Of a DNA stretch of 61,169 bases, positions 39,007-61,169 are shown one piece after another (position 1 is the first letter of the stretch; each line of letters starts with the position of its first letter). The stretch covers positions 1 through 61,169 of IMG/VR virus record IMGVR_UViG_3300020109_000001. One strand, written 5' to 3'. The translations under genes and the position numbers were made by a program. Under the pieces are notes generated by a model. It did not search any database. It was not told the DNA's origin and saw nothing but the letters and a program-made list of their open reading frames with translations. The DNA is from a virus (Duplodnaviria > Caudoviricetes).

Positions 39007-39432
39007 TCACACCGTCACAAGGTAGATCATGTTTCTTTCTGGATTTGTCATCGAGTCAAACAACTGTTTGCTGATAACCCTGTTTTGATAACCAGTCACC
39101 AGATTCTCTTGTTCAATTACGAGCAAGTCGAAATCATGAATAGGACGTTCTTTACGAATGTAGAGCGGGGGGACAGGGTCGACCACCGCTCCATCATTCA
39201 ACTCGATGACAACTTGGTACTTGGTGTCTGCAAAATACCCAGCGTCATTCGGCCAGACATCTACACTGAACTCACCTTCACCATTGTGTGTTGCAGCGAT
39301 AGATTTCTTAGCGATGTATTCACCATTCTCGAAGTCAGAACCTGTTAGTCGAAAAGTGATCGACTTGATATTTGCACTTTGACCATCTGGCAAAGTGATC
39401 GTTCCTTCAACCTTTACTTTACTGATGGTCAT
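39007..39432 (-). CDS. putative tail-fibre adaptor (TITLPDG...F.V.VWPN..G...T.Y)
   Basis: Motif typical of tail-fibre N-termini; GAGGA SD before ATG 39432. Confidence 0.6.
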   Translation of the reverse strand: MTISKVKVEGTITLPDGQSANIKSITFRLTGSDFENGEYIAKKSIAATHNGEGEFSVDVWPNDAGYFADTKYQVVIELNDGAVVDPVPPLYIRKERPIHDFDLLVIEQENLVTGYQNRVISKQLFDSMTNPERNMIYLVTV

Positions 39433-39442
39433 TTTATTTTCC

Positions 39443-48694: not shown

Positions 48695-49112
48695 TATTCC
48701 TATCCATCATTGCCATCAGAATCGCGTCAAGCTGATCACTGACTTTCTTTCTGTGCTCTTCGATGTCCACAATGAACGGAGGAGGACAGGCTTTGTCAGT
48801 TGACAGGTTGTATTGGTGCGCGAACTCCTGAGAAAGTTGATAAAGAATCTTCACTTCCCAGTGTTGTAGTTCGCGATCCATCAGGCTTGACCATGCAAGA
48901 ATATCTAGCCATGATATTCCTGTATATCCAAATCCCGTTGATCGAACAGGGTTTATCTCAAACAACCAAGTGACAAGATAACTCATCTCTGGTTCTGGAG
49001 GCAGGTGCGCGGTGGTGGTGTTCCACCGCGATCCCGATCCTTCAACTGGTGCCGACAGCCAGGCATGCTGTCGAACAAACAGTGTTAGTTGTTCGAGTTG
49101 GTCTGCAAAAAA
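48678..49112 (-). CDS. tail assembly chaperone, -1 frameshift extension (gpGT-like)
   Basis: T TTT TTG slippery site at 49106-49112; -1 frame open into 48678-48986; ISW.DI.AW.......L..WE. Confidence 0.75.
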   Translation of the reverse strand, partial: FFADQLEQLTLFVRQHAWLSAPVEGSGSRWNTTTAHLPPEPEMSYLVTWLFEINPVRSTGFGYTGISWLDILAWSSLMDRELQHWEVKILYQLSQEFAHQYNLSTDKACPPPFIVDIEEHRKKVSDQLDAILMAMMDRNNGRHR

Positions 49113-49522
49113 TTCTCGGCCTCAGCCACAAATTCATCGACCTGACGACGCAGCCAAGGACGAGCCTTGTAGATCATCTTGGCGTTCTCACGGGTGCAAG
49201 CAAGTTCTGCTTTCTCACCGTACTCATTCGGCCAGACCATGCCCTCCCAGCCGGTGGTCACAGAGGCCAGCAAATCTGCACTCTGTTCCTCAATCTCGGC
49301 GAGAGATTGTTCCTTGTTCTTCCGCTTGCTGTTCTGGCGCATGTGAAAATCCATGCGGTTGCGGAAGGTCTTCGAATCGTTCCCCTTCAGGAAGATGCGG
49401 ATAGGTTTCGTCTCACCCATCTCATCAACGAAGGTCATTTCTTCACCCGTCACCGGGTTCCGGACAACCATGGGAGCGCCTTCTTCGGCAGCGTTGCCAA
49501 GGTCAAGATCAAAGATATCCAT
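49085..49522 (-). CDS. tail assembly chaperone (gpG-like)
   Basis: Between tail tube and tape measure; G.DS..F, LA..T.GW, PWLR.QV..F....ENF. Confidence 0.8.
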   Translation of the reverse strand: MDIFDLDLGNAAEEGAPMVVRNPVTGEEMTFVDEMGETKPIRIFLKGNDSKTFRNRMDFHMRQNSKRKNKEQSLAEIEEQSADLLASVTTGWEGMVWPNEYGEKAELACTRENAKMIYKARPWLRRQVDEFVAEAENFLQTNSNN

Positions 49523-49536
49523 TTTCAGTTTCCATA

Positions 49537-49583
49537 GTCTCAGGTCTCAAGCTGGGGTCGGTGAGACCAATCCCGACCCCAGC
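49537..49583 (-). promoter_or_regulatory. predicted RNA H-type pseudoknot in the leader of the tail chaperone gene
   Basis: 11-bp stem GCTGGGGTCGG/CCGACCCCAGC; loop GGTCTCA complementary to the adjacent TGAGACC. Confidence 0.55.
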
Positions 49584-49601
49584 CACCCATCTGCTGATGG
49601 A

Positions 49602-50054
49602 TTAGGCGGCGACGCGGACGATCAGGTCGCTGTCGACTTCCACGGTCGGCGATGCAGTGACAACGTCATCGACACCACCAACGTTCGGCTTGAAGGACAT
49701 CACTTTGCCCATCAGATAGTATTTCGCACCACTCTGCAGAGTGACCATGAATGCGTAGGATTCATCGCTTTCCAGCGCTTCTTCCATCAGAATTTGACCC
49801 GCATCCACAGGGTCCAGAGCCAGCGCGGGGTTCAGAGTCCCGTTGTTGTAGCTGCCTTTGCCTTTCTTCACACCACGGGTGCTCAGAGGCTGGTGAGTCA
49901 CCAGGGCGAATTCTTTGCCGAATTCACCGATGTTCGTGATCTCACCGACAGCGACATAGGACTTCGCAGCATATCCAGCTGCATCAGCGGTAGCAGGGGC
50001 ACCTGGGGTGCTCGCGATCGAAAGAGACGCGCCTGCAGCAGTTTGCCAAGCCAT
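49602..50054 (-). CDS. major tail tube protein
   Basis: VGEITNIGEFG....LVTH.PL..R...K.KGSYN.G; D.GQ. Confidence 0.85.
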   Translation of the reverse strand: MAWQTAAGASLSIASTPGAPATADAAGYAAKSYVAVGEITNIGEFGKEFALVTHQPLSTRGVKKGKGSYNNGTLNPALALDPVDAGQILMEEALESDESYAFMVTLQSGAKYYLMGKVMSFKPNVGGVDDVVTASPTVEVDSDLIVRVAA

Positions 50055-50078
50055 GATTTTCTCCTATCCAGATGGCAT

Positions 50079-50471
50079 TTATGCAGGTTTCATAAATCCT
50101 TGATACCTGACCTGCACAGGCATTCGGTAGTGTGTTGCTCCATCCGGATATCCAGAAAGCCGATGAGGCCAATGATTGACTCTCGCCCCAGCCAGCACAG
50201 CATTATAGAAATGATTCTGGACCCTTCGCGCAACAGTCAGTGCTTCATCGGAACCTGTGTTCGCAAGCACCCTCACAGAGATTTGAAATCTCCCTGTGAA
50301 CTCATGCGTTCCATCTAGAGACCTCCGGAAAGGTTCATCAGGAACAGATTCTACAATCAACAAGGTGTCATCCTCACCTTGCCAATGTTGGTTTTCCCAC
50401 ACAATCGAGGGGCGGGGAGAGAGCGCGGTCAGATGTAGTGCCGCAGCATTCAGAATGTCATCTTCAGTCAT
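50079..50471 (-). CDS. tail terminator-like protein
   Basis: I.WEN, G.FQISV....N.G, PV.VRY; synteny. Confidence 0.7.
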   Translation of the reverse strand: MTEDDILNAAALHLTALSPRPSIVWENQHWQGEDDTLLIVESVPDEPFRRSLDGTHEFTGRFQISVRVLANTGSDEALTVARRVQNHFYNAVLAGARVNHWPHRLSGYPDGATHYRMPVQVRYQGFMKPA

Positions 50472-50902
50472 TCCATCATACTCGCTCTCTTGGCTTCGTC
50501 CCTCGCGATCCTTTTCGCCAATCCTTCACCATATTCGATGAAGTGAACACCTGCCTGGTTGTAGTATCGACCCAGAGAGTCGGTTCCAGTAAATCCATAG
50601 TTGATACGATCAGCATAAGGTGCTGTCCATCCCCAACGGATATTGCCTTCAAACGGTGGTAGAGAGATCAATTCCCGATAGGCTTCAGCACCAATCAGAA
50701 GCGTCCCTCCCGCATCTACCACAAGCGAGTCTCGGAGTTCGCCAGTAACAACAGGCATCCGACCGCCGCTACTCCGAGGTCTTTGTTGTGCCTGCATAAT
50801 TCTCGCTGCAGTCATCACCTTAACATAGTCAAGACGGTGCTTGACCATTGCGGCCCAGCGATCGGCCTGTGAGAAGCGAAATCGCGCCATATCAGACCCC
50901 AT
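50468..50902 (-). CDS. tail completion / neck protein (HK97 gp10-like)
   Basis: MPV.TG.LR.S, APYA.RI.YGF.G.DSLGR.YNQAG. Confidence 0.75.
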   Translation of the reverse strand: MGSDMARFRFSQADRWAAMVKHRLDYVKVMTAARIMQAQQRPRSSGGRMPVVTGELRDSLVVDAGGTLLIGAEAYRELISLPPFEGNIRWGWTAPYADRINYGFTGTDSLGRYYNQAGVHFIEYGEGLAKRIARDEAKRASMME

Positions 50903-50928
50903 ATTGAGGAGCGCTGGAGAGGCTCGCA

Positions 50929-51010
50929 GGCGGGCGTAACGCCCTAACGGGTAACGCCCTAGCGGCTAGGGCGTTCCGGGCCTCCAGCGGGCTGCTCAGC
51001 GGCTCTCAGG
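50929..51010 (+). repeat. composite dispersed element, copy 4
   Basis: GGCGGGCG 50929, GGTA-ACGCCC-TAGC 50950, GCTGCTCAG 50991. Confidence 0.6.
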
Positions 51011-51023
51011 TACGTTTCAAAGG

Positions 51024-51380
51024 CTAACCCGCTACCGTAGCGTTCCAAAGTACGGTGAGACCGGCTGGAGCGATCTCTTTGACCGTTTGGATCGTCAGAA
51101 TTGAATCTCCGAACTCGATCTGATCATTGTCTTCAACTTTGACACGACCAATAGTCGAGATGAGGAAACTGTTCTTCGTAATCGAAAGACGTGCGTCATT
51201 GGGTGACGTGATTGTCTTTGTGATCCGAAAGACAGTGATTCTCTTCCGAATTGGCTCACCAATTGTTGGTCGATGCTCTGGACCAGTCTTTGGTCCTGGC
51301 TTGAGGAGATATGCTTCTGTACCAAACTCAGCAAGCATCTCTTCAGCCATTGAGCGAAATTCAGCGTAGATGGGGTTCAT
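51024..51380 (-). CDS. head closure / head-tail adaptor
   Basis: Y......A..ML.EFG; I.PAG..VLW; synteny. Confidence 0.7.
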   Translation of the reverse strand: MNPIYAEFRSMAEEMLAEFGTEAYLLKPGPKTGPEHRPTIGEPIRKRITVFRITKTITSPNDARLSITKNSFLISTIGRVKVEDNDQIEFGDSILTIQTVKEIAPAGLTVLWNATVAG

Positions 51381-51865
51381 TATCGCACCCAGAAAATGGG
51401 GAAGGAACCCTGGTTGTCATTGATGATGTCGATCAGGATACCTTCGATTACAGGAAGGTAGGGTAGATTGTCACGAGAGTACATCGACTGGTTCTTGAAG
51501 AACTCTCGCTCAAGGACATCTATCTTTTGCTTCTTCACTTGTTGTGAAGCGAAACTCGTTGGTAGGATACCACCAGGCCGGAGGACTTCGCTCTTCGCAA
51601 TCTCGAAGGCGGCAACCTCAACAGCAGGAGGAATCATATCGAAGGGGATCAACTCCCCGCGAATTGTTTGTGCGCCTTCCCGAGGCCATTGGCGGATTTG
51701 AGCAATCCCACCAGTCTTTTGACCAGGAAAACGATGGGCATAGATAGCGTCGAGGATCATGGAACCCTGGGTCAGCGCAGTCGTCTTTTGGGCTTCATCC
51801 AGATCACCCCATTCAGGGAAACTGGCGCCATAGTACGTTGTTGCTTTTTCCAGGGTTCCATACAT
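51380..51865 (-). CDS. head-tail connector (DnaT-like annotated family)
   Basis: MYGT...A..YY, QWPR, IP.AV..A..E.A; start ATG 51865. Confidence 0.7.
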   Translation of the reverse strand: MYGTLEKATTYYGASFPEWGDLDEAQKTTALTQGSMILDAIYAHRFPGQKTGGIAQIRQWPREGAQTIRGELIPFDMIPPAVEVAAFEIAKSEVLRPGGILPTSFASQQVKKQKIDVLEREFFKNQSMYSRDNLPYLPVIEGILIDIINDNQGSFPIFWVR

Positions 51866-51869
51866 TGTC

Positions 51870-52277
51870 TTATGCTTTCTCGGACAGAGCCCAGATGCGG
51901 TCGCGTTCTTCAGCCGTGATGTTCGGCTTGCCGGCTTCATGAAGCTTCTCGTTCACACGACGAACTTCAGGACGACCATCACCCATCATCGCGTCATCAG
52001 GCAGCGACTTCATGATTGCGAGGATTTCCTGGTCGGCTTCATCAGCCGAAGGCTCCTCATCAGCTTCCTGGACAGTTTCAGGATTCTGAACGTCCACGAT
52101 GCGGAACGAATCATCGTCCTCGTCCACAGGAGCGCCAGTGATCTCAAGAACACCGAGTTGCTCCAGTTTGCGAAGGGACCGCGGAATGCGGCCCTCCACT
52201 TCCAGAGTACCACCGGCATCGAGAGCCTGACCACTGATGGTGACGCGCTGTTCACCAATGTTTTTCACACTTGCCAT
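51870..52277 (-). CDS. hypothetical virion-associated protein (DGRPEV..VN...ITAEERD.IW)
   Basis: GAGGA SD; head module. Confidence 0.7.
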   Translation of the reverse strand: MASVKNIGEQRVTISGQALDAGGTLEVEGRIPRSLRKLEQLGVLEITGAPVDEDDDSFRIVDVQNPETVQEADEEPSADEADQEILAIMKSLPDDAMMGDGRPEVRRVNEKLHEAGKPNITAEERDRIWALSEKA

Positions 52278-52286
52278 GATCCGTCC

Positions 52287-52475
52287 TCAATTGTCGCCGA
52301 CAGCTGCAGCTTTTACAGCCCACATCGACGCGGTTTCCAGGTTAGTCAGGGCAACAGAACGCCGACGCCCTGCAGGGAGTTCCTCGATGATGGAAGCGAG
52401 TTGGTTACTCGCCTCCTTGATTCGAGTGATCATCGGGTCACCACTTGGGTTGAAATTGGTATCTGTAACAGACAT
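52287..52475 (-). CDS. Acb2/Tad1-like helical-hairpin protein (putative cyclic-nucleotide sponge)
   Basis: FNPSG...I..IK......L...I.....GR..SVALTNLETASMWAVKA; TGATG coupling to the capsid gene. Confidence 0.65.
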   Translation of the reverse strand: MSVTDTNFNPSGDPMITRIKEASNQLASIIEELPAGRRRSVALTNLETASMWAVKAAAVGDN

Positions 52476-53425
52476 CAGATTCCATCCATGTAGGTGACTT
52501 CCAGGGGACGACGGATATCCACACCACCCAGACGGAACAGACCAGGAACGTCCCAGCGGAACGGACCGGACTGATACACAGGGAAGAAGCGGTGAGGCAT
52601 CGGCATGTGCAGCTTCAGCACTTCCGGCGACCGACGATAGGCAACGATCCGGTTGGAGTTACCAACACCAGCTTTGTCCAGCCCATACACTGCACGAATC
52701 GTCAGCGGACGACCAGTGGTAATCGTGTACAGATTGTACTTCATGATGTATTCCATGAGGCTACCAGCCGTCATGGTGCCCGACACATCCGTCAGCCGAC
52801 GAGTTGCCAGCAGGGTGATGATGTCATAGGGCAGCAGCACCGTGTCTGCGATCGAGGTGTACTTCGTGTCTTTCCAGGAGACAGTCAGTGCCTCGTTGAA
52901 ATCGGCCAGGATCTGGTCGATGTCAGCATTGGCCCAATCCCCGTTGGGGGCAGTGCGGGGGGTGATGGCGTTGTGGTTGACCACGCCCTTCAGGTTCTTC
53001 TCGGAGTCACCGACGAAGCAGATGCGGTTGATCATGTCTTCCGCGGCACGACGAGCAGCGACAGCGTCTTCTGCAGGCAGGTTGCGACCAGCAGCCATGG
53101 CGCCGACCAGTTCCTCATAGCCCCAGCCATAACCGATGGCTGCGGTGTAGACGGTCGACATCCCGCGCGTGCGGACTTGACCGGCAGTCGGAACGTCATC
53201 GTTGTTGGCGTTGAACCACTGGGCTCGGCCATACATATCGCCCGACCAGAATTCGACAACCTGGGTCCATTCAGGAGCCGACATATCGATCGGCACCAGC
53301 TGGGCATAGTTGAATTCCGGGTAGCGCATCATGTTGACGCCAGGCTCGATGTAGGTTCGTGCCTGGGATGCATATCCCGCGACAGCAACCATGTCGTCCT
53401 GAGTCAGATGTTGATTCGGATACAT
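52475..53425 (-). CDS. major capsid protein (DUF2184 type)
   Basis: YPE..Y..LVP, IGYGW..EEL, AARRA.E..IN...F.GD, R.GGV.IRRP....YMDGI. Confidence 0.9.
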   Translation of the reverse strand: MYPNQHLTQDDMVAVAGYASQARTYIEPGVNMMRYPEFNYAQLVPIDMSAPEWTQVVEFWSGDMYGRAQWFNANNDDVPTAGQVRTRGMSTVYTAAIGYGWGYEELVGAMAAGRNLPAEDAVAARRAAEDMINRICFVGDSEKNLKGVVNHNAITPRTAPNGDWANADIDQILADFNEALTVSWKDTKYTSIADTVLLPYDIITLLATRRLTDVSGTMTAGSLMEYIMKYNLYTITTGRPLTIRAVYGLDKAGVGNSNRIVAYRRSPEVLKLHMPMPHRFFPVYQSGPFRWDVPGLFRLGGVDIRRPLEVTYMDGI

Positions 53426-53436
53426 CGTTGCTCTCC

Positions 53437-53895
53437 TCAGAGGTCGATGTTGACGATGACGAGTTCGCCAGCGTCAGCACTTGTTTCGAATTTACCGACA
53501 CGAATGTTGCCCGTATCGATGTTGGTGACCAGGCCAGGATTGGCAGGAGTCACATAGGCATCGGTGTCAGCGACGACAGCGACAGATGCCTTGACCCAGA
53601 AGCTACCACGCGCAGCCAGACGAGCAGAGTCGTACTGTGCGAAGCCTTCTGCGGTCGTGTCCGTTGCCGGGCGAGCACCACGGTCAAGCACAGTCAGAGC
53701 CAGAACCGAGGTCTTGCCCACCAGGTTGGTCGTGACAGTGCGTTCAGTCGTGCCGCGAGCGACAAATCGACCGAAGCGGGTGATGCCGGCATCCTCGCAG
53801 GTCCGCGAGAAGAAGTCGCGGGGACGAGCATTCGCCACAGCGCCTTCATAGCCTTCCGGCATATGGTCATTATAGACAGTTTGAATCGGCGGCAT
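53437..53895 (-). CDS. head decoration / cement protein
   Basis: Between the DUF2213 gene and capsid; FG..V.RG, G.FWV.A. Confidence 0.7.
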   Translation of the reverse strand: MPPIQTVYNDHMPEGYEGAVANARPRDFFSRTCEDAGITRFGRFVARGTTERTVTTNLVGKTSVLALTVLDRGARPATDTTAEGFAQYDSARLAARGSFWVKASVAVVADTDAYVTPANPGLVTNIDTGNIRVGKFETSADAGELVIVNIDL

Positions 53896-53907
53896 GGTAT
53901 GCGCTCC

Positions 53908-55014
53908 TTACTGCGGGGTTTTCCAGGCGTCCGCGAGTTCTTTCTCGCGGGCATGATACCCGAAGGAATCATTCACCTGGGTCGGGTTGCTCTGACGATC
54001 GAGAACGGTCGACATCACATTGTCACCCAGTTGGGTTTTCTTCTGGGCTTCCTTGGCCTGCTTCAGAGCAATATCGAACATGGCTTCGATATAGGCTTCG
54101 CCCTTGTCAGCATACTCAGCATCGACAGTCACAACAGCTTTCTTGCGGACATCAGCATCGGACAGACCCTTGAAGTCAGCCTTGGGTGCGATCAGAGCCG
54201 CGTCAGCCAGCAGCTGGGCACGCTTGGCCACACGTTCATCCAGCTGTGCGTCGTTCAGCTGAGCAGCTTCCAGTTCCTTGATGCGAGCATCCTTCGTCGC
54301 GAGTTCCTTGTCTTTCGCGTCGATAGCAGCTTGGGCGCGATCTTGAATATTCTTGATGTGACCAGTGATCTTGTCCGCATCAGTGGCGATAACCTCTGCG
54401 GTCGAATCGCCGATCGCAATATGCTTCGTGGTCATCTTGACCTCCTTTTCTATCGGGGCAGCACCCCATTCGTCGCCGATCTGGCAATTCCCCGCACGTC
54501 CGTTGGGGACGACCGCGAGATGGTTGATGCGAATATTGGTCTGCTTCGCATCGTAGTCTTGTCCATCAGATGTAACACCAGGAGTTGCATCCAACACACA
54601 AGTGTAACCAGCAGACAACTGCCGGGTACCACTTTGAATGGCGGCAACCGCCGCAGCATCCTTGATCACGAGAGGCAACTTGATTCGGTTACCATCCCAC
54701 ATCGCCTCGGTTGAGACTTCCCCGACAGCCAGCTTGTTCCAGTTATCAGCTGTCACAGCTTCTTTGGGGTGTCCCATGGTCACAGGTGCGTGGCTGAAAG
54801 TCGTGAGACTGTCAGGAGCACGAACCTCATCCTCAGGACGATAGACCCGGACGATGGCCTTGTCGCGAAGACCCAGAGTTCCATCCGGATCAACTTCTTT
54901 GCCAGTGTACAGTTGGACGCCAGTACGGACTGCAAAAGCTTCCGTCACCATGTATCCATCTGAAGTGATGCGAGTGCCACTCAGCGTGACACTGTCGCGA
55001 AGGGGCACAGTCAT
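53908..55014 (-). CDS. DUF2213 prohead protease / scaffold
   Basis: RTGVQ.Y, YRP.DEV....SL.TF...PVT.GHP, LSAGY, Q.NI.INHLAVV..GRAG. Confidence 0.9.
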   Translation of the reverse strand: MTVPLRDSVTLSGTRITSDGYMVTEAFAVRTGVQLYTGKEVDPDGTLGLRDKAIVRVYRPEDEVRAPDSLTTFSHAPVTMGHPKEAVTADNWNKLAVGEVSTEAMWDGNRIKLPLVIKDAAAVAAIQSGTRQLSAGYTCVLDATPGVTSDGQDYDAKQTNIRINHLAVVPNGRAGNCQIGDEWGAAPIEKEVKMTTKHIAIGDSTAEVIATDADKITGHIKNIQDRAQAAIDAKDKELATKDARIKELEAAQLNDAQLDERVAKRAQLLADAALIAPKADFKGLSDADVRKKAVVTVDAEYADKGEAYIEAMFDIALKQAKEAQKKTQLGDNVMSTVLDRQSNPTQVNDSFGYHAREKELADAWKTPQ

Positions 55015-56918
55015 GTCGCATCCTTTTTGATTGTCTCGAAGACTTCTGGACCAAGAACAATCTTACCAGTGTATGGCTCGATGTCGTCAAGATTCAGACC
55101 GTCAACAGACTTCGACAGAGAGATATGTGGCTTGTAGTCTGGGTAAGACGACGAAGCACCACGATCAATCATATCTTCGTGACGATACTTCAGTTGGTAG
55201 CTGTTGAACCGAAGAACGAGTGTCTCATCGTCAGGAGGACCAAAGATGTCGAGCATCCGAGCACCACCAGGACGAATCTCGAGGTTCCCGTTCCGCCAGT
55301 CACCCGCCCAGTCATCTTCCATACTCATCCAGTCAACAGGTGTCTCACTGTAGAGGATGGTAACATGCAAGTCGTCGGCTGGGAACAGGTCTTGGATTCC
55401 CTGCTTCTTGGCCCAATCGAGAATGGATTTCGCATTCACGACCTTGCGACTCACATAGAGAGGCATGGGACCTCTCTCGTCGTTGACTGCTTTCTTGCGG
55501 GATGCGGGGGGCGAGTTCTCGTTCGCAGCACCACCAGGCTTGGGTTCAGGCTTCAATGCTGCTTTGACAACATCGATAGCTTCACCAGGTTCATTCCGAA
55601 CCTTCTGATGCATCTCCCAAGCATCTTCAAGACCAGGCATGGCTTCGTGCTCGACGATGGTGTTAACGACAGCCGCACCCATCGAGTAGGGGTCGATCAT
55701 GCCGTTCTTGATCATCGTCTCGCCGACCTTCGCAGCATTCAGAGCAATCTCTGCACGCTCCTTCTCGGTCACCTGCCACAATGGGCGCCAGGTATAGAAG
55801 ATCTCTTTCGGACGACGACCCAGAGCGGAGCGGATCACCGCCTCGTCGTAGTTCTTCATCGCCGGAGTGATCTTATTATTCTGCATCGACTGAACACGAT
55901 CATAGTAATGGCGGATATCCGCCTCACCTGTTGCGTTCAGACCACCAGGGCTGGTTCCGAAGAGTCGAGTAACAGGAATGCTGCACGACCCAGAAACATA
56001 CTGGTAGAAGCGGTCGATGAGTTCAGGAAGAGAACCATAGGTCTGGCTCTTCTGTTGGTACTGTTCCAGTTCATCCAGGATGAGCGTACCGTTGACGCTT
56101 TTCGACATGCTCGCCATGGCGAATCGCTTCAGAAGGTCAGCCTCATATCCCGGCTGCTGAGCCAGCTTGGTCATCAGACCCTTGACGTTGATTACGTCAA
56201 TCTTCGCTTCAAAGATCAGGTTGGCGATTGCCGTGATGGCTCCGTCAACATGTTTAGTGGCGTTCAACACAACCTGTAGAACCGAACGTGACCATTGCGT
56301 GTTCACGCGCGGCATATCAAGCGGTCGTTCATCACCCTTGAAGATCATCAGACGAGTGTGGTGAATCTTGACGTCACCGCCATCAGCTTTCTTGTACAGA
56401 TAGTACACAGGCTTGCCGAAGTTCTCGCTGTCCAGGTTCTCATCGAGATCACCCTGAGTCAGTTGAAGCTGACTGAAGACGATACAACGACGAAGATCGC
56501 CTTTCCCGATGGTCTTCGCATCAAATGGGGTGTCGGGCTTTTGGCCACGGATTGGGAAATAGACTGCAGCGCCTCCGAGCAGGCGTCCATTCTTCAACCC
56601 AGTCTCTACTGCTTGTAGAACACCCGTGCGAGATTCTTCGGCTTCGATGGCGGTGATCTGGTCGGGAGGAGCGTTCCAGTTCCGCCAGCGACGAGTCGCA
56701 TCTTCAGCGATGGTATCTACGATTCGGCGTGGGAGGAACGCCGTTTCATAGGCAGCAAGCAACTCAGCATCAGTGTAAGTGCGTGACATGTACACGCCAG
56801 CTGATGCTTTGTCTCTACCACCACCAAAGCCTGCGACTACATTGCCGTAGCCATCCCACATTTCAAGTACTTGACCGTCCGCTGTGACACGCGCACGACC
56901 ACGAGGCTTCTCTGTCAT
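55011..56918 (-). CDS. portal protein (DUF1073) fused to a C-terminal Acb1-like 2H phosphodiesterase
   Basis: IVD..AEDATR.W, IH.TR...F.G, IPVTRLFG.SP.GLNATGE.D...YYD; C-terminal LHVTILYS...YKPHISL...LGPEVF. Confidence 0.85.
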   Translation of the reverse strand: MTEKPRGRARVTADGQVLEMWDGYGNVVAGFGGGRDKASAGVYMSRTYTDAELLAAYETAFLPRRIVDTIAEDATRRWRNWNAPPDQITAIEAEESRTGVLQAVETGLKNGRLLGGAAVYFPIRGQKPDTPFDAKTIGKGDLRRCIVFSQLQLTQGDLDENLDSENFGKPVYYLYKKADGGDVKIHHTRLMIFKGDERPLDMPRVNTQWSRSVLQVVLNATKHVDGAITAIANLIFEAKIDVINVKGLMTKLAQQPGYEADLLKRFAMASMSKSVNGTLILDELEQYQQKSQTYGSLPELIDRFYQYVSGSCSIPVTRLFGTSPGGLNATGEADIRHYYDRVQSMQNNKITPAMKNYDEAVIRSALGRRPKEIFYTWRPLWQVTEKERAEIALNAAKVGETMIKNGMIDPYSMGAAVVNTIVEHEAMPGLEDAWEMHQKVRNEPGEAIDVVKAALKPEPKPGGAANENSPPASRKKAVNDERGPMPLYVSRKVVNAKSILDWAKKQGIQDLFPADDLHVTILYSETPVDWMSMEDDWAGDWRNGNLEIRPGGARMLDIFGPPDDETLVLRFNSYQLKYRHEDMIDRGASSSYPDYKPHISLSKSVDGLNLDDIEPYTGKIVLGPEVFETIKKDAT

Positions 56919-58369
56919 AGCGCATACTCCAGCACTTCGGTCTCCAGCAAGCGAGCAAATGCCCGCGAGCAGGCATCGATTTGGTCTTTGAATCTCCCTG
57001 CTGGGAAGGTTTCAGCTTCAGACAGGAACGCATTGTTCCAATCACCTTGTACGAGGAACACATTCCCCGCAGCAGCCTGGGCAGCAAGTGGTGCCGCCCG
57101 TGTGGCTTTGTCTCCAGATTCGGTCGAGAACGTGTAATCGTATCCCAACAGCTTACCGACCAGATATGTGACCTGGAACTTCCCCGACTGTCCAGGGTCC
57201 TGGGGCAAGGAGCCAGGAACCAAATAACCGTCTTGTTTAGCTGTTGCGATCAAAGTCGTTTCGACCATCAGCGGATCGCCGCGAAACCGCTTCATGTCGC
57301 CAATGTAAATCTTTCCGGCAGGACTTATCCCAACCAATGCTCCAGCAGTAAAGGCTGCTGTTGCACTGTCCGTGGCCGCCAAGTCCCATCCACGAGCCCA
57401 TCGAGTCCCCTTGGGGGCAAAATCGACGACTTTGAACCAGTCTCGCTTAAACAACCCGCCGCCACGGGGCGAGGGCCGCTGCTGGAATTGGCCCGCAACT
57501 GCGTACGGACCCGAGATCGACATCATGACTTTCTTGTCACGTTCGACTACTTCTCGTGAGAATCGTTCCGGGAAGAGGAGTTCATCGACCTCAGTACGTG
57601 GATCAACAAAACCAATGCTAGTATAGCACTTGCGATCAGGCTCAAACTCCATAGGAAGGTTAAGATGTTCGTAACCAAGACCTTCCTCCAGAATAATACC
57701 AGCAGGATCACGCTCATGGAGACGCTGCATAATCATTACAATGGCATCCCGCTCCGGATCGTTGAGGCGGGAGGGCACGGCTTCAGTGAACGTCTCAGCC
57801 ACCTGCTGAAGGATGACTGGTGAACGAGCATCGTCGACGGAGAGAGGGTCGTCGATCCCGACTCGATGTCCCCGAGAACCCGTCAGAGAGGTGAAAGCCA
57901 TAGCTTCCCGGAATCCCCGCTCGCTGTTCTCGAACTTCTGCTTCGAGTCACTTCCTGAGTCAATCGTGAACTGGGAACCCCAGCGAGACTGGTACCAATC
58001 AGACTTGATCAGGTTCCGAGTCTTCTGGGAATCACGAAGAGCCAGGTCTTGTTTGTGTGAGGTCCCAAGATACCGGACCCACGGCATTTGTTTGGGACCC
58101 CACTCCCACGCGGTCCAGAAGACCCCTGTGAGAAGCGATTTCATCATGCCCGGAGGGACGGTGATGAGAAGTCGTTTCAAATGACCGTCGGTCACGGCCT
58201 CGAGATGATCACAGATTGCGTCAAGAGCCCAACCCCATTTGAGTTCGGCTCCTGGTTCGAGAACATGCCAACCACCCTTGGTGAATCCCGCGAGCGTGGC
58301 GAACTCTTTGCGTTCTTTGCGCCGACGAAGAACCTCGGCCGCAGCCTGGGCTCTAGTTACCATCGTCAT
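56915..58369 (-). CDS. terL: terminase large subunit
   Basis: RLLITVPPGMMKS, IDDP, MQRLHERD, QFQQRP.P.GG, WDLA, DQIDA. Confidence 0.95.
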   Translation of the reverse strand: MTMVTRAQAAAEVLRRRKERKEFATLAGFTKGGWHVLEPGAELKWGWALDAICDHLEAVTDGHLKRLLITVPPGMMKSLLTGVFWTAWEWGPKQMPWVRYLGTSHKQDLALRDSQKTRNLIKSDWYQSRWGSQFTIDSGSDSKQKFENSERGFREAMAFTSLTGSRGHRVGIDDPLSVDDARSPVILQQVAETFTEAVPSRLNDPERDAIVMIMQRLHERDPAGIILEEGLGYEHLNLPMEFEPDRKCYTSIGFVDPRTEVDELLFPERFSREVVERDKKVMMSISGPYAVAGQFQQRPSPRGGGLFKRDWFKVVDFAPKGTRWARGWDLAATDSATAAFTAGALVGISPAGKIYIGDMKRFRGDPLMVETTLIATAKQDGYLVPGSLPQDPGQSGKFQVTYLVGKLLGYDYTFSTESGDKATRAAPLAAQAAAGNVFLVQGDWNNAFLSEAETFPAGRFKDQIDACSRAFARLLETEVLEYAL

Positions 58370-58841
58370 CTCCTGGAGGGAGAATGTCGTAGTCAGCTTC
58401 CGTCAGCAAGATCTCCTCGAGTTCGTCATCGGTCATTTCCTCGAGGCTCTTGTCCTCCGTTTTGAGGCTGATCTCCTGTTTCGGAGCGCCCAAGCCACGG
58501 GTCTCTGCATCCCGCAGCATCGTGTTGACATCCGAGTTGATGAACTTGAGGATCTTCTGGATGGCCTCAGCGCGTTCCTCTTCGGTGGCGTCCGGATTAA
58601 CAACAACGAGTTGTTGGGTTGCAATCTGGGATTCCAATGTTTCAAGTAGAGTGGCACGAATACGAAGAGCAGTCTTTGCATTTATTCGTCCTTGGGCTGC
58701 GTCACGGTTGCTCATCCCGAATAAGTTGGGATTCCCGGTCTGCCCTTTGACGAATCGAGTAGCCATCTGTCGAGGGCTGAGAATCATAGACTGTGCCGAA
58801 GCAGGTGCCTCCCGCTCGGCTTGCTCTTTGGTACGAGGCAT
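58353..58841 (-). CDS. terS: terminase small subunit
   Basis: TRF.KGQTGNP; LEEMTDDELE; directly upstream of terL. Confidence 0.75.
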   Translation of the reverse strand: MPRTKEQAEREAPASAQSMILSPRQMATRFVKGQTGNPNLFGMSNRDAAQGRINAKTALRIRATLLETLESQIATQQLVVVNPDATEEERAEAIQKILKFINSDVNTMLRDAETRGLGAPKQEISLKTEDKSLEEMTDDELEEILLTEADYDILPPGDDDGN

Positions 58842-58872
58842 GTGGGTCCATCCTCATGGTTGTGAATAGCTT

Positions 58873-58922
58873 CGCCCGAGGGCTCCAGTCAACCCTCGGG
58901 CGTAGTGACCCTCTAAGGGTCA
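58873..58922 (-). promoter_or_regulatory. tandem hairpins in the late-operon leader (candidate antitermination element)
   Basis: CGCCCGAGGG-N10-CCCTCGGGCG at 58873-58902 and TGACCCT-N3-AGGGTCA at 58906-58922; no U tract. Confidence 0.55.
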
Positions 58923-59021
58923 GGCGCAGCACTGGTAGGCCCAAAGCCGCTAGTCCAGGAGGTCACTTCCACAATCTTCTGGCGAGGAGAACTGGGCAGA
59001 CCGTACAACCGAACTATGGTC

Positions 59022-59050
59022 AGAATAACCCGGCCCGATAATGAAGTAAA
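59022..59050 (-). promoter_or_regulatory. late-operon promoter TTTACT-N17-TATTCT
   Basis: AGTAAA at 59045-59050, AGAATA at 59022-59027. Confidence 0.7.
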
Positions 59051-59074
59051 GTATTATTTTTTGGACGACGATAA

Positions 59075-59563
59075 TTATTTTATGGGTGTGATGTCAGTGA
59101 GTAGACATTTGATCGGATGGTCACAATCATCAGGCCAGACAATGGCTACATGACCCTTACATTCTTGGACCGTGCCCTTCAATCCATTCAATGTCTCATC
59201 CGTAAACACAACCCGTGCCAACCGTGGAAGAGGCCTCCCCATCACCATCGACCGTCTCTCCAGTTCCTGAGCATAATAGACCTGCTCTTGGGGGACTTTG
59301 ACTGGCATCCCGGTGGCGGGGGAGCGGAGGAAGTGGTGGGTCCATCGCTCAGCGAGTTGTGCGAGTCGGTGGAGTGCGTCCGGATGCAGGAAGGCGTATC
59401 CTGGGTACATTAAAGTGCGGATCGCTTTGGGACGTCTTTTTCGTCCTGCTCGCGTATATGTGGTCATGCGCGGGCGGATTAGGTGTTGTGGGGGGAGGTT
59501 CTCTTCAATCGCGGTCAAATTGGTGTTTGAGGAACGAATTACGTGGAAATAGTCGAAATTCAT
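59075..59563 (-). CDS. NusG/RfaH-like transcription antitermination factor
   Basis: P......R..RK......LMYPGYAFL (NGN), FLR....P..VP.EQV, RV.F....L.GL.GTV (KOW). Confidence 0.7.
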   Translation of the reverse strand: MNFDYFHVIRSSNTNLTAIEENLPPQHLIRPRMTTYTRAGRKRRPKAIRTLMYPGYAFLHPDALHRLAQLAERWTHHFLRSPATGMPVKVPQEQVYYAQELERRSMVMGRPLPRLARVVFTDETLNGLKGTVQECKGHVAIVWPDDCDHPIKCLLTDITPIK

Positions 59564-59838
59564 CGCTTTAGACCCTTTTCACGAAGGAATTCGACACATT
59601 CGGGGAATGTTGTGGGCCAATTCTTGGCTTTCCTGTGTTTATTACTCAGATACATGTACTCGTGACCGAGATGCAAGGCAACTTCGTATTGGAGCACGTT
59701 TATACTGAGATCCTCTAAAGGTCGGGAAGATTGGAACGTTAGTGAGGCGTCAATCTTCTTCTCGATTTTGGCGCGGTCCTTGGCCTCTTCTTCGGCGGCG
59801 ATGTCGAGTGGGTGACGCTCGTGGTCGTATAGTTTCAT
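59560..59838 (-). CDS. hypothetical protein (92 aa)
   Basis: ATGA overlap; promoter upstream. Confidence 0.65.
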   Translation of the reverse strand: MKLYDHERHPLDIAAEEEAKDRAKIEKKIDASLTFQSSRPLEDLSINVLQYEVALHLGHEYMYLSNKHRKAKNWPTTFPECVEFLREKGLKR

Positions 59839-59880
59839 GGTCCGTGGGTCCTGGATCAGAAAGTTAAAGCCATATTGGAT

Positions 59881-59909
59881 ATTATACCGCCTTATTACTT
59901 TTTAGTAAA
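59881..59909 (-). promoter_or_regulatory. promoter TTTACT-N17-TATAAT
   Basis: AGTAAA at 59904-59909, ATTATA at 59881-59886. Confidence 0.8.
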
Positions 59910-59969
59910 GGGTGTTTTTAGCGAGTAATTGTCGCGTAACCATAAGTTATTGGTATTGGTTCTTAAAAC

Positions 59970-60280
59970 CCGTCTAATACCCTGTTGCGCCCCTATAGTA
60001 AAATCAACCTTTGTCAAATTACTTTATTGGATTTTACCTCGGATGCGATGTGTGTACGTATTCGCTCGTACGTACGTAAGGACCGGAAATAAGTAATAAT
60101 CCAATAATACAATAATACAGGACTGAATACGCGATGAATACTCTCGTAATCAACTTATTAGATTCTTATTGCATTTTTATTACGACGCGGCGGAAATAAT
60201 AATGCACCTAAAATCAATGCCGCTGGAAGAGCGCGAGCGGGGGAAGAGAAATTCGGATTCGCTCTCATATGTAGGTGCAC
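59970..60280 (+). other. AT-rich non-coding element, copy B (candidate replication origin)
   Basis: Colinear blocks shared with 28190-28495. Confidence 0.55.
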
Positions 60281-60411
60281 GTTATGGTTGATGCGGTTGT
60301 GCTTGTGGTGTTGGTGGATGTTGTAAGTCTGGTGAAGTCGAGGAAGTGTGTCCTCCCCCGCTGCTTCCTGACTTGGTCGTGAAAACGTCCGGGACGTTAA
60401 AACGGGCCGTA

Positions 60412-60490
60412 GGCGGCTGAAACGGGCTTTTAGGCTATACGGGTAGCGGGCGGTTACTGTGCGACGGCTAAAAACGCTGCTCCGGGGCTG
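60412..60490 (+). repeat. composite dispersed element, copy 5
   Basis: GCTATACGGGTAGC 60434, GCTGCTCCG 60476. Confidence 0.6.
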
Positions 60491-60747
60491 GAGAGGGTCG
60501 CAAAATAGGCGGGTTTAGCCCTATAGGCGGGCGGGCGGCGGAACCTACGATCAAATCCCGTTCCAAAAATTTGCAGCGATTTTTGTGTGTACGAATGCCG
60601 TTTTCATCTGTCATTCCACTTTTGGGAATTTGCACGCTGTCTCAGACACAGCTGCACCGCCGGGGGTAGGGGGTGGGGGGCGGTACCTCCACCGCGATAG
60701 TTTAACGTTAAACTAATCGGGCCGCCGGTTAGCGGCCCGTTAGCGCC

Positions 60748-61095
60748 TTAACCTTCAATAACGATAAAGTTTCTTTCACTATCAAACTTAAGGTCTGCGG
60801 TAGCTACGCCCGGTTTATCGCCCTTAGCGGTACAAGCGGCGATATAGTCCTTAACGGTCATACCATCTTTATAAAGGGCGAAGCGCGTCGCGGCCTTACC
60901 GCGTTTAGGGTTTAGCTTAACCGCGCCGGTTTCCTTATCCGCGATTTCCGGGTTAAGGCGAATTACGCGGTTATCCGCGTATAGCCGGTTAGCGGCCATT
61001 TTACGCCCGAAAACGACGGGCGCGAAAGTAACCGGGTTAGCGGCGACGGTTTCGGTAGCGGTTTCGACGGCGGGTTTTTTAGCGTTAGCGGTCAT
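60748..61095 (-). CDS. TG/CA-depleted early gene; NPKR...RFALYKDGMTV domain (paralog family of 3)
   Basis: Homologous to 5140-5670 and 22099-22854; TAGGATAAG SD; own promoter at 111-139. Confidence 0.85.
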   Translation of the reverse strand: MTANAKKPAVETATETVAANPVTFAPVVFGRKMAANRLYADNRVIRLNPEIADKETGAVKLNPKRGKAATRFALYKDGMTVKDYIAACTAKGDKPGVATADLKFDSERNFIVIEG

Positions 61096-61169
61096 TTTAT
61101 CTTATCCTATCTCTAAGGGTTAGCGGTTAGCGTTTATCGCTTCCGTATAATCCTTATACCGCGCTTAAC

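What the first reader, a model, noticed from the sequence alone, without database searches (positions are those of the whole stretch)
60748..61095. A whole gene written almost without TG/CA: candidate modification-free 'bootstrap' gene
Seen: I count 9 TG or CA dinucleotides in 348 nt, against about 43 under uniform composition. 60866-61092 (227 nt) has only one, an unavoidable Met codon. The protein has no Gln, His or Trp, whose codons force CA or TG. Leu uses CTA/CTT/TTA, and Val/Phe/Ile before a G-starting codon mostly use NTC, which avoids T|G. Its paralogs (5140, 22099) use TG/CA normally, so the domain does not explain the bias. The island runs through the leader and promoter to about 205. 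Known: thymidine hypermodification in M6/ViI/phiW-14 was inferred from restriction patterns to target TG/TC. Inference: the gene is kept free of bulky modified T so host RNA polymerase can transcribe it from incoming virion DNA, and its product may enable expression of the modified remainder.
Basis: partly seen in the sequence, partly recalled or inferred. Interest (0 to 1): 0.92.

Follow-up and report, generated by a model that had tools for sequence, protein, structure and literature searches.

The report
Phage gene purged of T-then-G/C
One small phage gene, with its promoter and terminator, is written almost without a T followed by G or C on either strand; this is the sequence context where related phages put bulky groups on thymine, so it is probably a deliberately unmodified island in an otherwise modified genome.

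Summary
The window is a circular 61,042-bp siphovirus contig. A 557-nt island (60691..205 across the junction) holds one complete transcription unit. It has 11 TG/CA where about 81 are expected. TC/GA are also 2-3-fold low. The four most depleted dinucleotides are exactly TG, TC, CA and GA, which is "T followed by G or C" on either strand.

Synonymous resampling gives 41±4 TG/CA for the gene (minimum 23 of 20,000); 9 are observed. An ortholog at 71.5% nucleotide identity keeps the depletion although 14 of 32 four-fold sites differ, so selection maintains it.

The genome carries a thymine-modification module: TS-like hydroxymethylase, TAGT-like glycosyltransferase and an M6 gp55-like protein. 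It has no P-loop 5-hmdU kinase.

Of 10 other near-complete phage genomes with this module, 4 have comparable or partial islands. Each lies 1.4-2.9 kb from terL and encodes a small protein of the same winged-helix-like domain family. Seven kinase/transferase-type phages (M6, PaMx11, PhiJL001, phiW-14, ViI, SH-Ab 15599, LuckyBarnes) have none.

Best reading: a modification-free island. Why it exists is unproven; immediate-early expression or a cis-acting site near the genome end are the candidates.

The parts
60691..61169 (.). TS-free island, first part. It continues at 1..205; 61043..61169 repeats 1..127 because the contig is circular.
   Evidence: 11 TG/CA in 557 nt. T is followed by A/C/G/T in 45/13/4/38% of cases, against 13/32/30/25% in the rest of the genome.
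1..205 (.). TS-free island, second part: start of the CDS, leader, promoter and about 65 nt of non-transcribed upstream DNA.
   Evidence: The next TG/CA is at 206.
60748..61095 (-). 115-aa gene: disordered Ala/Thr/Asn-rich N-terminus, an invariant FGRKMAAN segment, and a C-terminal winged-helix-like domain of about 55 aa.
   Evidence: ORF. 16 homologs at 63-94% identity. AF2 model pLDDT 74.8. No Pfam, PHROG or NCBIfam hit.
111..139 (-). Sigma-70-like promoter TTTACT-N17-TATAAG. Both hexamers are TS-free approximations of the consensus.
   Evidence: Pattern search. The consensus scanner missed it because position 6 of the -10 is G. Inferred, not tested.
60718..60739 (-). Terminator-like hairpin directly after the stop codon.
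   Evidence: 9 pairs, 8 of them G-C.
60698..60715 (.). 18-bp perfect palindrome TAGTTTAACGTTAAACTA at the island's downstream edge, identical in the ortholog locus.
   Evidence: Candidate packaging or end site; inference only.
60621..60690 (.). Conserved C-rich non-coding element (minus strand GGTACCGCCCCCCACCCCC...) abutting the island.
   Evidence: The blastn match to L002 extends through it; alignment.
206..560 (.). Block richest in TG/CA in the whole genome, with CATG-rich repeats, abutting the island's upstream edge.
   Evidence: 65 per 300 nt at 216, z = 3.2, the genome maximum. Repeats.
37..187 (-). Seven of the 12 same-orientation CGCTAA motifs (TTAGCG on + at 37, 43, 78, 85, 167, 174, 182). 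The other five are at 60729, 60740, 60824, 60989 and 61037.
   Evidence: 12 copies, none in the opposite orientation, P about 0.005 against a first-order Markov model. Only 11 copies occur in the other 60.5 kb.
22099..22854 (-). 251-aa paralog carrying the same C-terminal domain, next to the modification genes, with normal TG/CA.
   Evidence: A homolog lies near the gp55-like gene in 6 of 10 related genomes.
5140..5670 (+). 176-aa paralog carrying the same C-terminal domain, with normal TG/CA.
17793..18797 (-). Thymidylate-synthase-family protein, probably a pyrimidine hydroxymethylase.
   Evidence: PF00303, 4.2e-21. Below the NCBIfam thymidylate-synthase cut-offs. 43% identical to M6 gp58.
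18794..19696 (-). TAGT-like DNA glycosyltransferase.
   Evidence: PF20691, 9.9e-16. phrog_842, 1.9e-29.
20580..21527 (-). M6 gp55 / PaMx11 gp50-like protein.
   Evidence: PF18723 HMUDK_hel, 3.4e-47. 35-40% identical to M6 gp55 and PaMx11 gp50. 139 phage records hold a homolog.
56915..58369 (-). Large terminase; its start lies 2.3 kb from the island.
   Evidence: phrog_38, 1.3e-71.

Best explanation
The 115-aa gene with its promoter, leader and terminator is a roughly 560-bp stretch from which 'T followed by G or C' has been removed on both strands. Selection keeps it that way.

The phage most likely replaces thymine with 5-hydroxymethyluracil and decorates it further, probably with a sugar. 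In studied phages such decoration goes to TG first, then TC, and hardly to TT or TA. A stretch without TG or TC on either strand would therefore stay essentially undecorated in the virion.

I read the island as a programmed modification-free patch. Its promoter, template and protein-binding sites stay in ordinary B-DNA chemistry whatever the state of the rest of the genome. It sits next to the packaging genes, probably at or near a chromosome end. The most likely use is prompt expression of the small winged-helix-like protein from incoming DNA by the unaided host polymerase.

Shown: the depletion, its exact spectrum, its maintenance by selection, its recurrence in phages with the same module, its position near terL, and the presence of the modification genes.

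Inferred: that the DNA is modified, that the context is TS in this phage, that the island lies at a genome end, when the gene is expressed, and what its product does.
For: 1. Spectrum. In this island and in the orthologous one, the four most depleted of 16 dinucleotides are CA, TG, TC and GA. One rule, T followed by S, covers all four. The 5' neighbour of T is unbiased.

2. Selection. The ortholog L002 is 71.5% identical over 509 nt. 27 of 74 degenerate same-residue codons differ and 14 of 32 four-fold sites differ. It still has 15 TG/CA in 336 nt, 6 of them forced, against 41 +/- 4 expected, minimum 26 of 10,000.

3. DNA level, not RNA or codon level. The non-transcribed upstream 101 nt has 2 TG/CA and 3 TC/GA, against about 15 and 16 expected.

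4. Modification genes. TS-like, TAGT-like glycosyltransferase, gp55-like and an HD phosphohydrolase.

5. Published context. TS in M6, ViI and phiW-14 (PMC6449724). TG > TC >> TT/TA in SH-Ab 15599 (PMC13458397).

6. Recurrence. 10 near-complete genomes with the TS-like + GT + gp55-like module were examined. The minimum/mean TG+CA per 300 nt is 0.07 in G004, 0.06 in G009, 0.28 in G010 and 0.30 in G003; the window is 0.05. Each of these four islands holds a small ORF of the same domain family. Each is depleted at the synonymous level. For example the G004 gene has 4 TG/CA and 2 TC/GA in 300 nt, against 35 +/- 4 and 28 +/- 4. In its 707-nt island, T is followed by G or C in 5% of cases against 70% elsewhere. 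Island GC content ranges from about 27% to 64%, so a shared donor composition is excluded.

7. Position. terL lies 1.4-2.9 kb from the island in all 5 island-bearing genomes.

8. Controls. Seven kinase/transferase-type phages give 0.52-0.63. In 80 unrelated viral loci the lowest value is 0.33.

9. Plausibility. Bulky major-groove groups on U or C cut E. coli RNA polymerase transcription to under 15% in vitro, whereas plain 5-hmU raises it (PMC6457204, passages read).
Against: - No chemical or sequencing evidence of modification exists for this uncultured phage.
- The P-loop 5-hmdU kinase and the aGPT-Pplase2/AADT transferase of the studied pathway are absent. The TS preference is therefore carried over by analogy only.
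- Seven of 7 T-hypermodified phages of the studied type have no island.
- Five of 10 genomes with the very same module have none (G001, G002, G005, G006, G007: 0.41-0.57). A sixth, G008 (0.32), has only a non-coding low.
- Domain copies in those genomes have normal TG/CA, 7.4-17.0 per 100 nt over 16 copies. The island is therefore not obligatory.
- From my own knowledge, not from a call: T4 early genes are transcribed by host polymerase from fully glucosylated DNA. Bulk alone does not force such a device.
- The other early-type promoters of this genome drive genes with normal TS content.
- The orientation of the island gene relative to terL differs between lineages.
Confidence: 0.5

Rival explanations
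1. The island is mainly a cis-acting DNA site at or next to the genome end. It could serve packaging recognition or termination, end protection, or loading of a DNA-binding protein such as the encoded winged-helix-like protein. It is kept TS-free so that proteins can bind it whatever the modification state. On this reading the gene inside is secondary.
For: - It lies 1.4-2.9 kb from terL in 5 of 5 island-bearing genomes.
- An 18-bp perfect palindrome and a C-tract at its edge are better conserved than the coding sequence.
- There are 12 same-orientation CGCTAA motifs in this island and 12 in the orthologous one, at similar places (7 non-coding, 5 coding), P 0.001-0.005.
- G004 has CGCTACGC seven times, P about 0 of 500.
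- A second TS-poor stretch (60381..60563, 7 TG/CA in 183 nt) lies on the other side of the conserved element.
- In M6 the lowest TG/CA window lies just upstream of terS, and in PaMx11 one of the three lowest does.
Against: - The island's limits coincide with one transcription unit, promoter to terminator.
- The whole coding sequence is purged at synonymous sites, not just short sites.
- The AT-rich islands of G009 and G010 have no enriched motif.
- Motif enrichment may partly follow from the restricted 'grammar' and from repeated Ala-Asn/Ala-Thr codons.
- Genome termini are not known; only contigs could be laid, not reads.
Confidence: 0.2
2. TS is avoided because something other than the phage's own modification reads it. 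Candidates are a host or phage nuclease, a glycosylase or another defence acting at T-G/T-C steps. Alternatively the avoided mark sits on the paired adenine (A preceded by G or C).
For: The depletion is symmetric on both strands and extends into non-transcribed DNA. That fits any agent reading double-stranded DNA. SA on one strand is the same site as TS on the other.
Against: - I know of no nuclease or defence with a two-base T-S specificity (own knowledge).
- The rest of the genome is rich in TS: 62% of T are followed by S. An indiscriminate reader would hit it everywhere.
- The association is with a thymine-modification module.
Confidence: 0.1
3. A foreign 'moron' cassette that simply retains the composition of its donor.
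For: It has its own promoter and terminator and a composition unlike its surroundings. Its upstream edge is a synteny break with L002.
Against: - Synonymous sites have diverged (14 of 32 four-fold sites), yet only 1 of the 27 synonymous codon differences involves a codon with an avoidable internal TG/CA, namely GCA.
- The same rule holds in islands of about 27%, 49% and 64% GC in different lineages.
- No genome with such a signature was met in 80 viral loci.
Confidence: 0.05
4. An RNA-level or translation-level cause: avoidance of an endoribonuclease site in the mRNA (as in ACA-less, MazF-resistant messages), or extreme codon bias for high expression.
For: On the coding strand CA is the rarest dinucleotide: 3 in 557 nt and 1 in the CDS.
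Against: - Non-transcribed DNA is equally purged.
- Both a dinucleotide and its complement are depleted.
- Amino-acid composition is bent as well.
- The same rule is met with entirely different codon sets in G004 and G009.
Confidence: 0.04

Closest known systems
5-hmdU-derived thymidine hypermodification of phages M6, PaMx11, ViI, phiW-14 and SH-Ab 15599 (PMC5889632 seen in a search listing only; PMC8989533 section 16 and passages read; PMC6449724 abstract and passages read; PMC13458397 passages read)
   Same: TS-family hydroxymethylase 43% identical to M6 gp58. gp55/gp50-like protein. HD phosphohydrolase. The reported preference TG > TC >> TT/TA is the mirror image of what the island lacks.
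   Different: No P-loop 5-hmdU kinase and no aGPT-Pplase2/AADT. A TAGT-like glycosyltransferase is present instead. None of the 7 studied-type genomes examined has a TS-free island.
First-entering early regions of T5 (first-step-transfer DNA) and T7 (gene 0.3 region), which carry anti-restriction genes and few restriction sites (recalled from my own knowledge, no call)
   Same: A small early-type gene with a host-type promoter, next to the packaging region, with a sequence shaped by what enzymes can do to the DNA.
   Different: Those regions avoid host restriction sites. Here the avoided word is apparently the phage's own modification context. Entry order and timing are unknown here.
Restriction-site or palindrome avoidance, and unmethylated CpG islands (recalled)
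   Same: Local or global sequence composition shaped by a DNA-modifying or DNA-cutting activity.
   Different: A two-base word is removed from one whole transcription unit, including synonymous sites and amino-acid choice, in a genome that is otherwise rich in that word.
Morons of lambdoid phages (recalled)
   Same: A single gene flanked by its own promoter and terminator, with a composition unlike its neighbours.
   Different: The composition is actively maintained and recurs under different GC contents. It is not inherited from a donor.
ParB-dependent phage T-dioxygenases (PMC13229309, passages read)
   Same: Sequence-selective action on T (NTG/NTR or NTC/YTY) and dependence on an accessory DNA-binding protein encoded in the modification cluster. 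Here a 251-aa protein with the island's domain lies near the gp55-like gene in 6 of 10 genomes.
   Different: No Tet/JBP dioxygenase was found in this genome, though the control was uninformative. No ParB. The role of the winged-helix-like domain is unknown.

Membership tests
5-hmdU-derived thymidine hypermodification pathway (as in M6, PaMx11, ViI, phiW-14) | Thymidylate-synthase-family dUMP hydroxymethylase | tested here: met
   PF00303 4.2e-21. phrog_5131 1.4e-98. Below the NCBIfam thymidylate-synthase cut-offs. 43% identical to M6 gp58. Substrate (dUMP or dCMP) was not determined.
5-hmdU-derived thymidine hypermodification pathway | P-loop 5-hmdU DNA kinase (M6 gp54, PaMx11 gp49) | tested here: not met
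   No tblastn hit at E <= 0.01. No hit in the own-genome search at E <= 1, though that search had no positive control. Walker A motifs occur only in the helicase, the primase-helicase and the tape-measure ORFs.
5-hmdU-derived thymidine hypermodification pathway | aGPT-Pplase2 / amino-acid:DNA transferase (M6 gp51, PaMx11 gp46) | tested here: not met
   No tblastn hit at E <= 0.01.
5-hmdU-derived thymidine hypermodification pathway | gp55/gp50-like cluster protein (Pfam HMUDK_hel) | tested here: met
   PF18723 3.4e-47. 35-40% identical to M6 gp55 and PaMx11 gp50. Its function is undetermined: it was dispensable in the M6 lysate reconstitution (PMC8989533 section 16).
5-hmdU-derived thymidine hypermodification pathway | Modified thymidine present in virion DNA, in a TS context | not testable with these tools
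   Uncultured phage. Only assembled contigs of public runs were available.
TET/JBP-associated glycosyltransferase (TAGT) DNA glycosylation | TAGT-family glycosyltransferase | tested here: met
   PF20691, 58.7 bits against a cut-off of 27.5. 178 homologs at E <= 1e-20, nearly all of the listed ones carrying PF20691.
TET/JBP-associated glycosyltransferase (TAGT) DNA glycosylation | Partner Tet/JBP dioxygenase | tested here: inconclusive
   No PF12851 match in the genome, but the family rang in none of the 14 control genomes either.
Moron | Own promoter and terminator, with composition inherited from a foreign donor | tested here: not met
   A promoter-like site and a terminator-like site are present. 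The composition, however, is maintained by selection and recurs at different GC contents.
First-entry early region (T5 FST / T7 gene 0.3 type) | Lies at the DNA end that enters first and is expressed before the rest | not testable with these tools
   Only its position near terL and a conserved palindrome are known. No read ends and no RNA data.
Winged-helix DNA-binding proteins | Significant fold or sequence match to a characterised winged-helix protein | tested here: inconclusive
   AF2 pLDDT 74.8. Best PDB Foldseek E = 0.42. Best BFVD E = 0.034. No Pfam hit.

The most novel reading that the evidence does not exclude
A group of roughly 60-kb phages that (probably) glycosylate 5-hydroxymethyluracil writes one immediate-early cassette in a 'dialect' without T-G/T-C. 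It is then the only stretch of virion DNA free of the bulky mark. It sits at the chromosome end that enters first. Its small protein has a domain that is also fused to ADP-ribosyltransferases and encoded beside the modification genes. That protein then either lets the host polymerase read the decorated remainder or disarms a defence that recognises the mark. The same solution has been kept or reached in at least three lineages of very different GC content, down to TS-free promoter hexamers and, in one case, a reading frame with no ATG, GTG or TTG at all.
Probability: 0.3. Interest if true: 0.92.

Novelty: categorically new. Interest (0 to 1): 0.86.

Why it matters
If the reading holds, the sequence itself tells where a hypermodifying phage does not want its own mark. 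Three things follow.

- It gives a purely computational read-out of the modification context (T followed by G or C) for an uncultured phage group with an uncharacterised glycosyltransferase-type pathway.
- It shows that hypermodification has a cost that phages design around. That would be a principle not described for T4, SPO1, M6, ViI or phiW-14.
- It singles out a small conserved protein family as a candidate key to how decorated DNA is first expressed or protected.

It also offers a simple genome-scan signature, a local collapse of one dinucleotide class on both strands. That signature could be used to find other context-specific DNA modifications.

Three literature searches found no report of such islands.

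Tried and rejected
Function of the protein. There was no hit in Pfam, PHROGs or NCBIfam. Foldseek against PDB and BFVD gave nothing significant. The ESM Atlas returned only unnamed viral clusters. The profile search found 459 clusters sharing the C-terminal domain. Of 10 longer hits scanned, 4 carry a C-terminal ADP-ribosyltransferase domain, 1 is an Ig-domain false positive and 5 have no family. This is a lead, not a function.

More ortholog DNA. Two scans of viral contigs and the one metagenome scan returned a single orthologous contig, held as L001, L002 and L005. A search with the neighbouring 162-aa protein found none. Only a matching contig length (57,469) links P0007 with the glycosyltransferase homolog P0170.

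Sequencing runs. 11 runs were listed, all kept as assembled contigs, and no RNA holder was listed. Laying 4 of the 11 gave no read ends, no usable depth and no variants inside the island. Contigs over the island have somewhat higher word depth in 2 of 4 runs, but the tool warns that this cannot be ranked, so I draw nothing from it.

RNA genes. There were no Rfam matches and no tRNAs in the window.

Generic restriction-site avoidance. Rejected. The island has more 4-bp palindromes than the rest of the genome (86 against 50 per kb).

Other low-TG/CA stretches. About a dozen intergenic stretches of this genome reach 3-7 per 100 nt. They lie within what intergenic DNA shows in the comparison genomes and are not claimed as islands.

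A Chi-like reading of CGCTAA. Considered. The orientation would fit an exonuclease entering from a nearby end, but host, Chi sequence and ends are all unknown, so I dropped it.

The 14-base motif scan. It returned at least 117 mostly unrelated contigs, of which 80 were listed. I used those 80 only as a composition control. L070 shares 20 identical bases but no protein similarity.

GC skew gave no origin signal.

Sampling. I examined 10 of the 16 contigs of 50-66 kb among the 80 loci. The other 6 were not examined. G003/G004 are close to each other, and so are G008/G009/G010. The island-bearing genomes therefore represent about three lineages, not five independent ones.
Full report
WHAT THE WINDOW IS. 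The first and last 127 bases are identical, so the contig is circular at 61,042 bp. IMG/VR classes it as complete with direct terminal repeats. It is a siphovirus-type genome with a large terminase (56915..58369), a portal, a head protease and a 2,101-aa tape-measure protein. It also encodes a family-A DNA polymerase, helicases and a primase. No cultured phage matches it at the DNA level. It occurs in lake-water metagenomes from several studies.

THE OBSERVATION. The gene 60748..61095 on the minus strand has 9 TG/CA in 348 nt, and 60866..61092 has 1. Genome windows of the same length give 50.5 ± 7.2. Treated as a circle, the depleted stretch runs from 60691 to 205. That is 557 nt with 11 TG/CA, where the genome's mean spacing of 6.9 nt predicts about 81. 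No other of 85 ORFs falls below 8.3 per 100 nt; this one has 2.6.

Resampling synonymous codons from the genome's own usage gives 41.1 ± 4.3 with a minimum of 23 in 20,000. Four of the 9 are forced by three Met and one Cys. The protein has no Gln, His or Trp and only one Ser. Codon junctions avoid T|G and C|A. The two paralogous domains are real and have normal density.

WHAT EXACTLY IS MISSING. TC and GA are also low: 27 in the gene against 42.9 ± 3.7, with a minimum of 29. Ranked against the rest of the genome, the four most depleted dinucleotides are CA, TG, TC and GA, both here and in the orthologous island. One rule covers all four: a T followed by G or C, on either strand. In the island T is followed by A/C/G/T in 45/13/4/38% of cases. 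Elsewhere the figures are 13/32/30/25%. The base before T is unbiased.

The non-transcribed 101 nt upstream of the promoter are as purged as the transcript, with 2 TG/CA and 3 TC/GA. The cause therefore acts on double-stranded DNA, not on the RNA or on codon choice.

ANATOMY. The island is one transcription unit. It contains, in order:
- an A/T-rich upstream stretch;
- a promoter TTTACT-N17-TATAAG (139..111), whose hexamers are TS-free versions of the sigma-70 consensus;
- a leader of about 50 nt;
- the CDS;
- a hairpin terminator (60739..60718).

At its downstream edge lies an 18-bp perfect palindrome followed by a C-tract. Both are more conserved between the two phages than the gene itself. 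At its upstream edge the genome jumps to its TG/CA maximum, 65 per 300 nt starting at 216.

The hexamer CGCTAA occurs 12 times in the island, always on the coding strand. It also occurs 12 times in the orthologous island, at similar places. This is more than a first-order Markov model of the island's own composition gives (P 0.001-0.005). Only 11 copies lie in the other 60.5 kb, most of them in promoter-like intergenic DNA.

SELECTION, NOT HISTORY. The only ortholog with DNA at hand is L002, a 5.5-kb contig syntenic through terS and terL. It is 71.5% identical over the island. Of 74 degenerate codons encoding the same residue, 27 differ. At four-fold sites 14 of 32 differ. Yet its gene has 15 TG/CA in 336 nt, 6 of them forced, against 41 ± 4 expected with a minimum of 26. 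Its island (587 nt) has 18. Synonymous sites have thus drifted widely, but only within the TS-free set.

THE LINK TO DNA MODIFICATION. The genome encodes four relevant proteins:
- a thymidylate-synthase-family protein, 43% identical to M6 gp58 and below the curated cut-offs for true thymidylate synthases;
- an HD phosphohydrolase;
- a TAGT-like glycosyltransferase;
- a homolog of M6 gp55 / PaMx11 gp50, a protein found in 139 phage records including M6, YuA, PaMx11, SH-Ab 15599, phiW-14 and SP-10.

It lacks the P-loop 5-hmdU kinase and the amino-acid:DNA transferase of the characterised pathway (pathway roles from PMC8989533 section 16). No Tet/JBP dioxygenase was detected, but the control for that search was uninformative.

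Restriction mapping in the literature places thymidine hypermodification at TG or TC in M6, ViI and phiW-14 (PMC6449724). In SH-Ab 15599 it is placed at TG, less at TC, and rarely at TT or TA (PMC13458397). The island's spectrum is the mirror image of this order.

COMPARISON GENOMES. Seven phages of the characterised type have no such island: M6, PaMx11, PhiJL001, phiW-14, ViI, SH-Ab 15599 and LuckyBarnes. Their lowest 300-nt window is 0.52-0.63 of the genome mean, against 0.05 here. Eighty unrelated viral loci reach 0.33 at the lowest.

I then took 10 near-complete genomes that carry the same glycosyltransferase. These were 10 of the 16 contigs of 50-66 kb. All 10 also have the TS-like and gp55-like genes, the polymerase and the SNF2 helicase. 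Their minimum/mean ratios are:
- G009 0.06, G004 0.07, G010 0.28, G003 0.30;
- G008 0.32, where the low stretch is non-coding;
- G001 0.41, G005 0.52, G006 0.54, G007 0.56, G002 0.57.

In G004, G003, G010 and G009 the low stretch contains a small ORF. Its product ends in the same domain as the window's protein (NPK-K/R-x-GS-x-A-x-x-R-Y/F-ALY ... D-h-x-Y/F-D-h-x-K-G-h-h). This rests on the alignment and on hhalign for G004, E 3.9e-4, probability only 35%.

The G004 gene has 4 TG/CA and 2 TC/GA in 300 nt, against 35 ± 4 and 28 ± 4 expected. In its 707-nt island only 5% of T are followed by G or C, against 70% elsewhere. G003, G010 and G009 are depleted to a lesser degree.

Island GC content ranges from about 27% (G009) to 64% (G004), so a shared donor composition is excluded. 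In all five island-bearing genomes terL lies 1.4-2.9 kb away. These genomes fall into about three lineages: window/L002, G003/G004 and G009/G010.

Against generality, half of the module-bearing genomes have no island. Sixteen other copies of the domain in G001-G007 have ordinary TG/CA, 7.4-17.0 per 100 nt.

THE PROTEIN. Sixteen homologs at 63-94% identity share an invariant FGRKMAAN segment and the C-terminal domain. The AlphaFold model is confident only for residues from about 40 to 115 and looks like a small winged-helix-type fold. No structural match is significant. The domain is widespread, in 459 clusters, mostly at the C-terminus of small phage proteins. In 4 of 10 long proteins scanned it precedes an ADP-ribosyltransferase domain. 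In this phage a 251-aa protein with the domain lies next to the modification genes, and its homolog lies near the gp55-like gene in 6 of 10 related genomes. The function remains unknown.

HOW IT MOST LIKELY WORKS. The best-supported chain has three steps, two of them inferred.
- Shown: selection removes T-then-S from a whole transcription unit next to the packaging genes, in phages that carry a thymine-modification module.
- Inferred: the module decorates T in TS contexts, so the island stays bare.
- More weakly inferred: this keeps a host-type promoter, its template and any binding sites usable on incoming DNA, giving prompt expression of the small protein.

In vitro, bulky major-groove groups on pyrimidines suppress transcription by E. 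coli polymerase, whereas plain 5-hmU does not (PMC6457204). So a cost of decoration is plausible.

The main rival is that the island is primarily a protein-binding site at the chromosome end. Supporting it are the conserved palindrome, the oriented motif array, the constant distance to terL and a second TS-poor stretch on the other side of the conserved element. The two readings are not exclusive.

Foreign origin, RNA-level avoidance and codon bias are each contradicted by specific results.

NOVELTY AND LIMITS. Three full-text searches found no description of modification-context-free islands in phage genomes. Supplements were closed and subscription journals are not covered. There is no direct evidence of modification, of genome ends, of timing or of protein function. 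The sequence context is borrowed from phages with a partly different enzyme set.

Noticed in passing
G009 (locus L280) 19524..19745, + strand: The island ORF of this AT-rich relative has no ATG, GTG or TTG anywhere in its stop-to-stop frame; all three contain TG. An ATA at 19554 preceded by AAGG could be the start. A paralog 400 nt downstream (20155..20364) starts with ATG at the aligned position. It is either a non-canonical start forced by TG avoidance or a dead copy.
   Followed up: partly
window 206..560: The block richest in TG/CA in the genome (65 per 300 nt, z = 3.2) directly abuts the TG/CA-poorest one. It is full of CATG-containing repeats such as CCATGACAGGATGATA. In L002 the contig's TG/CA maximum (43 per 200 nt at 1201..1400) also lies just upstream of the island.
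   Followed up: partly
window 594..749: Four iteron-like copies of CATTACC(C)CAACTAATAATCA, about 45-55 nt apart, in non-coding DNA between the island and the first + strand genes. Possibly an origin or an operator array.
   Followed up: no
window 7640..7880, 31130..31270, 50927..50985, 60381..60563: A family of GC-rich stretches punctuated by TA, with few TG/CA (for example TAGGCGGGCGG, TATACGGGTAGCGG), at intergenic sites including the convergent gene junction near 31.2 kb. Nature unknown.
   Followed up: no
window about 28230..28330 and 59990..60100, minus strand: Two similar AT-rich segments contain GATTTTACTATAGGG, reminiscent of single-subunit RNA polymerase promoters. However, no phage RNA polymerase was found among the proteins scanned.
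   Followed up: partly
window 17264..21527 and G001-G010: The TS-like hydroxymethylase, TAGT-like glycosyltransferase and gp55-like protein, without a P-loop kinase in the window, form a module with PolA, SNF2 helicase and primase. It is conserved in 10 of 10 related genomes of about 60 kb with unrelated structural genes. This suggests an uncharacterised, possibly glycosylated-5-hmdU, modification pathway.
   Followed up: partly
P0045, P0046, P0116, P0132 (metagenomic proteins): The island protein's C-terminal domain occurs once or twice near the N-terminus of 551-1025-aa proteins that end in an ADP-ribosyltransferase domain (PF03496). This hints at a role in targeting host-takeover enzymes.
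   Followed up: no
L070 3820..3839 (IMG/VR contig): An unrelated 46-kb viral contig shares 20 identical bases (the GGGTTAGCGGTTAGCG region) inside an intergenic stretch of about 450 nt that is low in TG/CA. There is no protein similarity to the window. Coincidence or convergence.
   Followed up: partly
window 59075..59563, minus strand: A 162-aa protein between the island and the terminase genes, 49% identical in L002, has no family hit. By eye it has a KOW-like C-terminus, suggesting a NusG/RfaH-type factor. Not tested.
   Followed up: no
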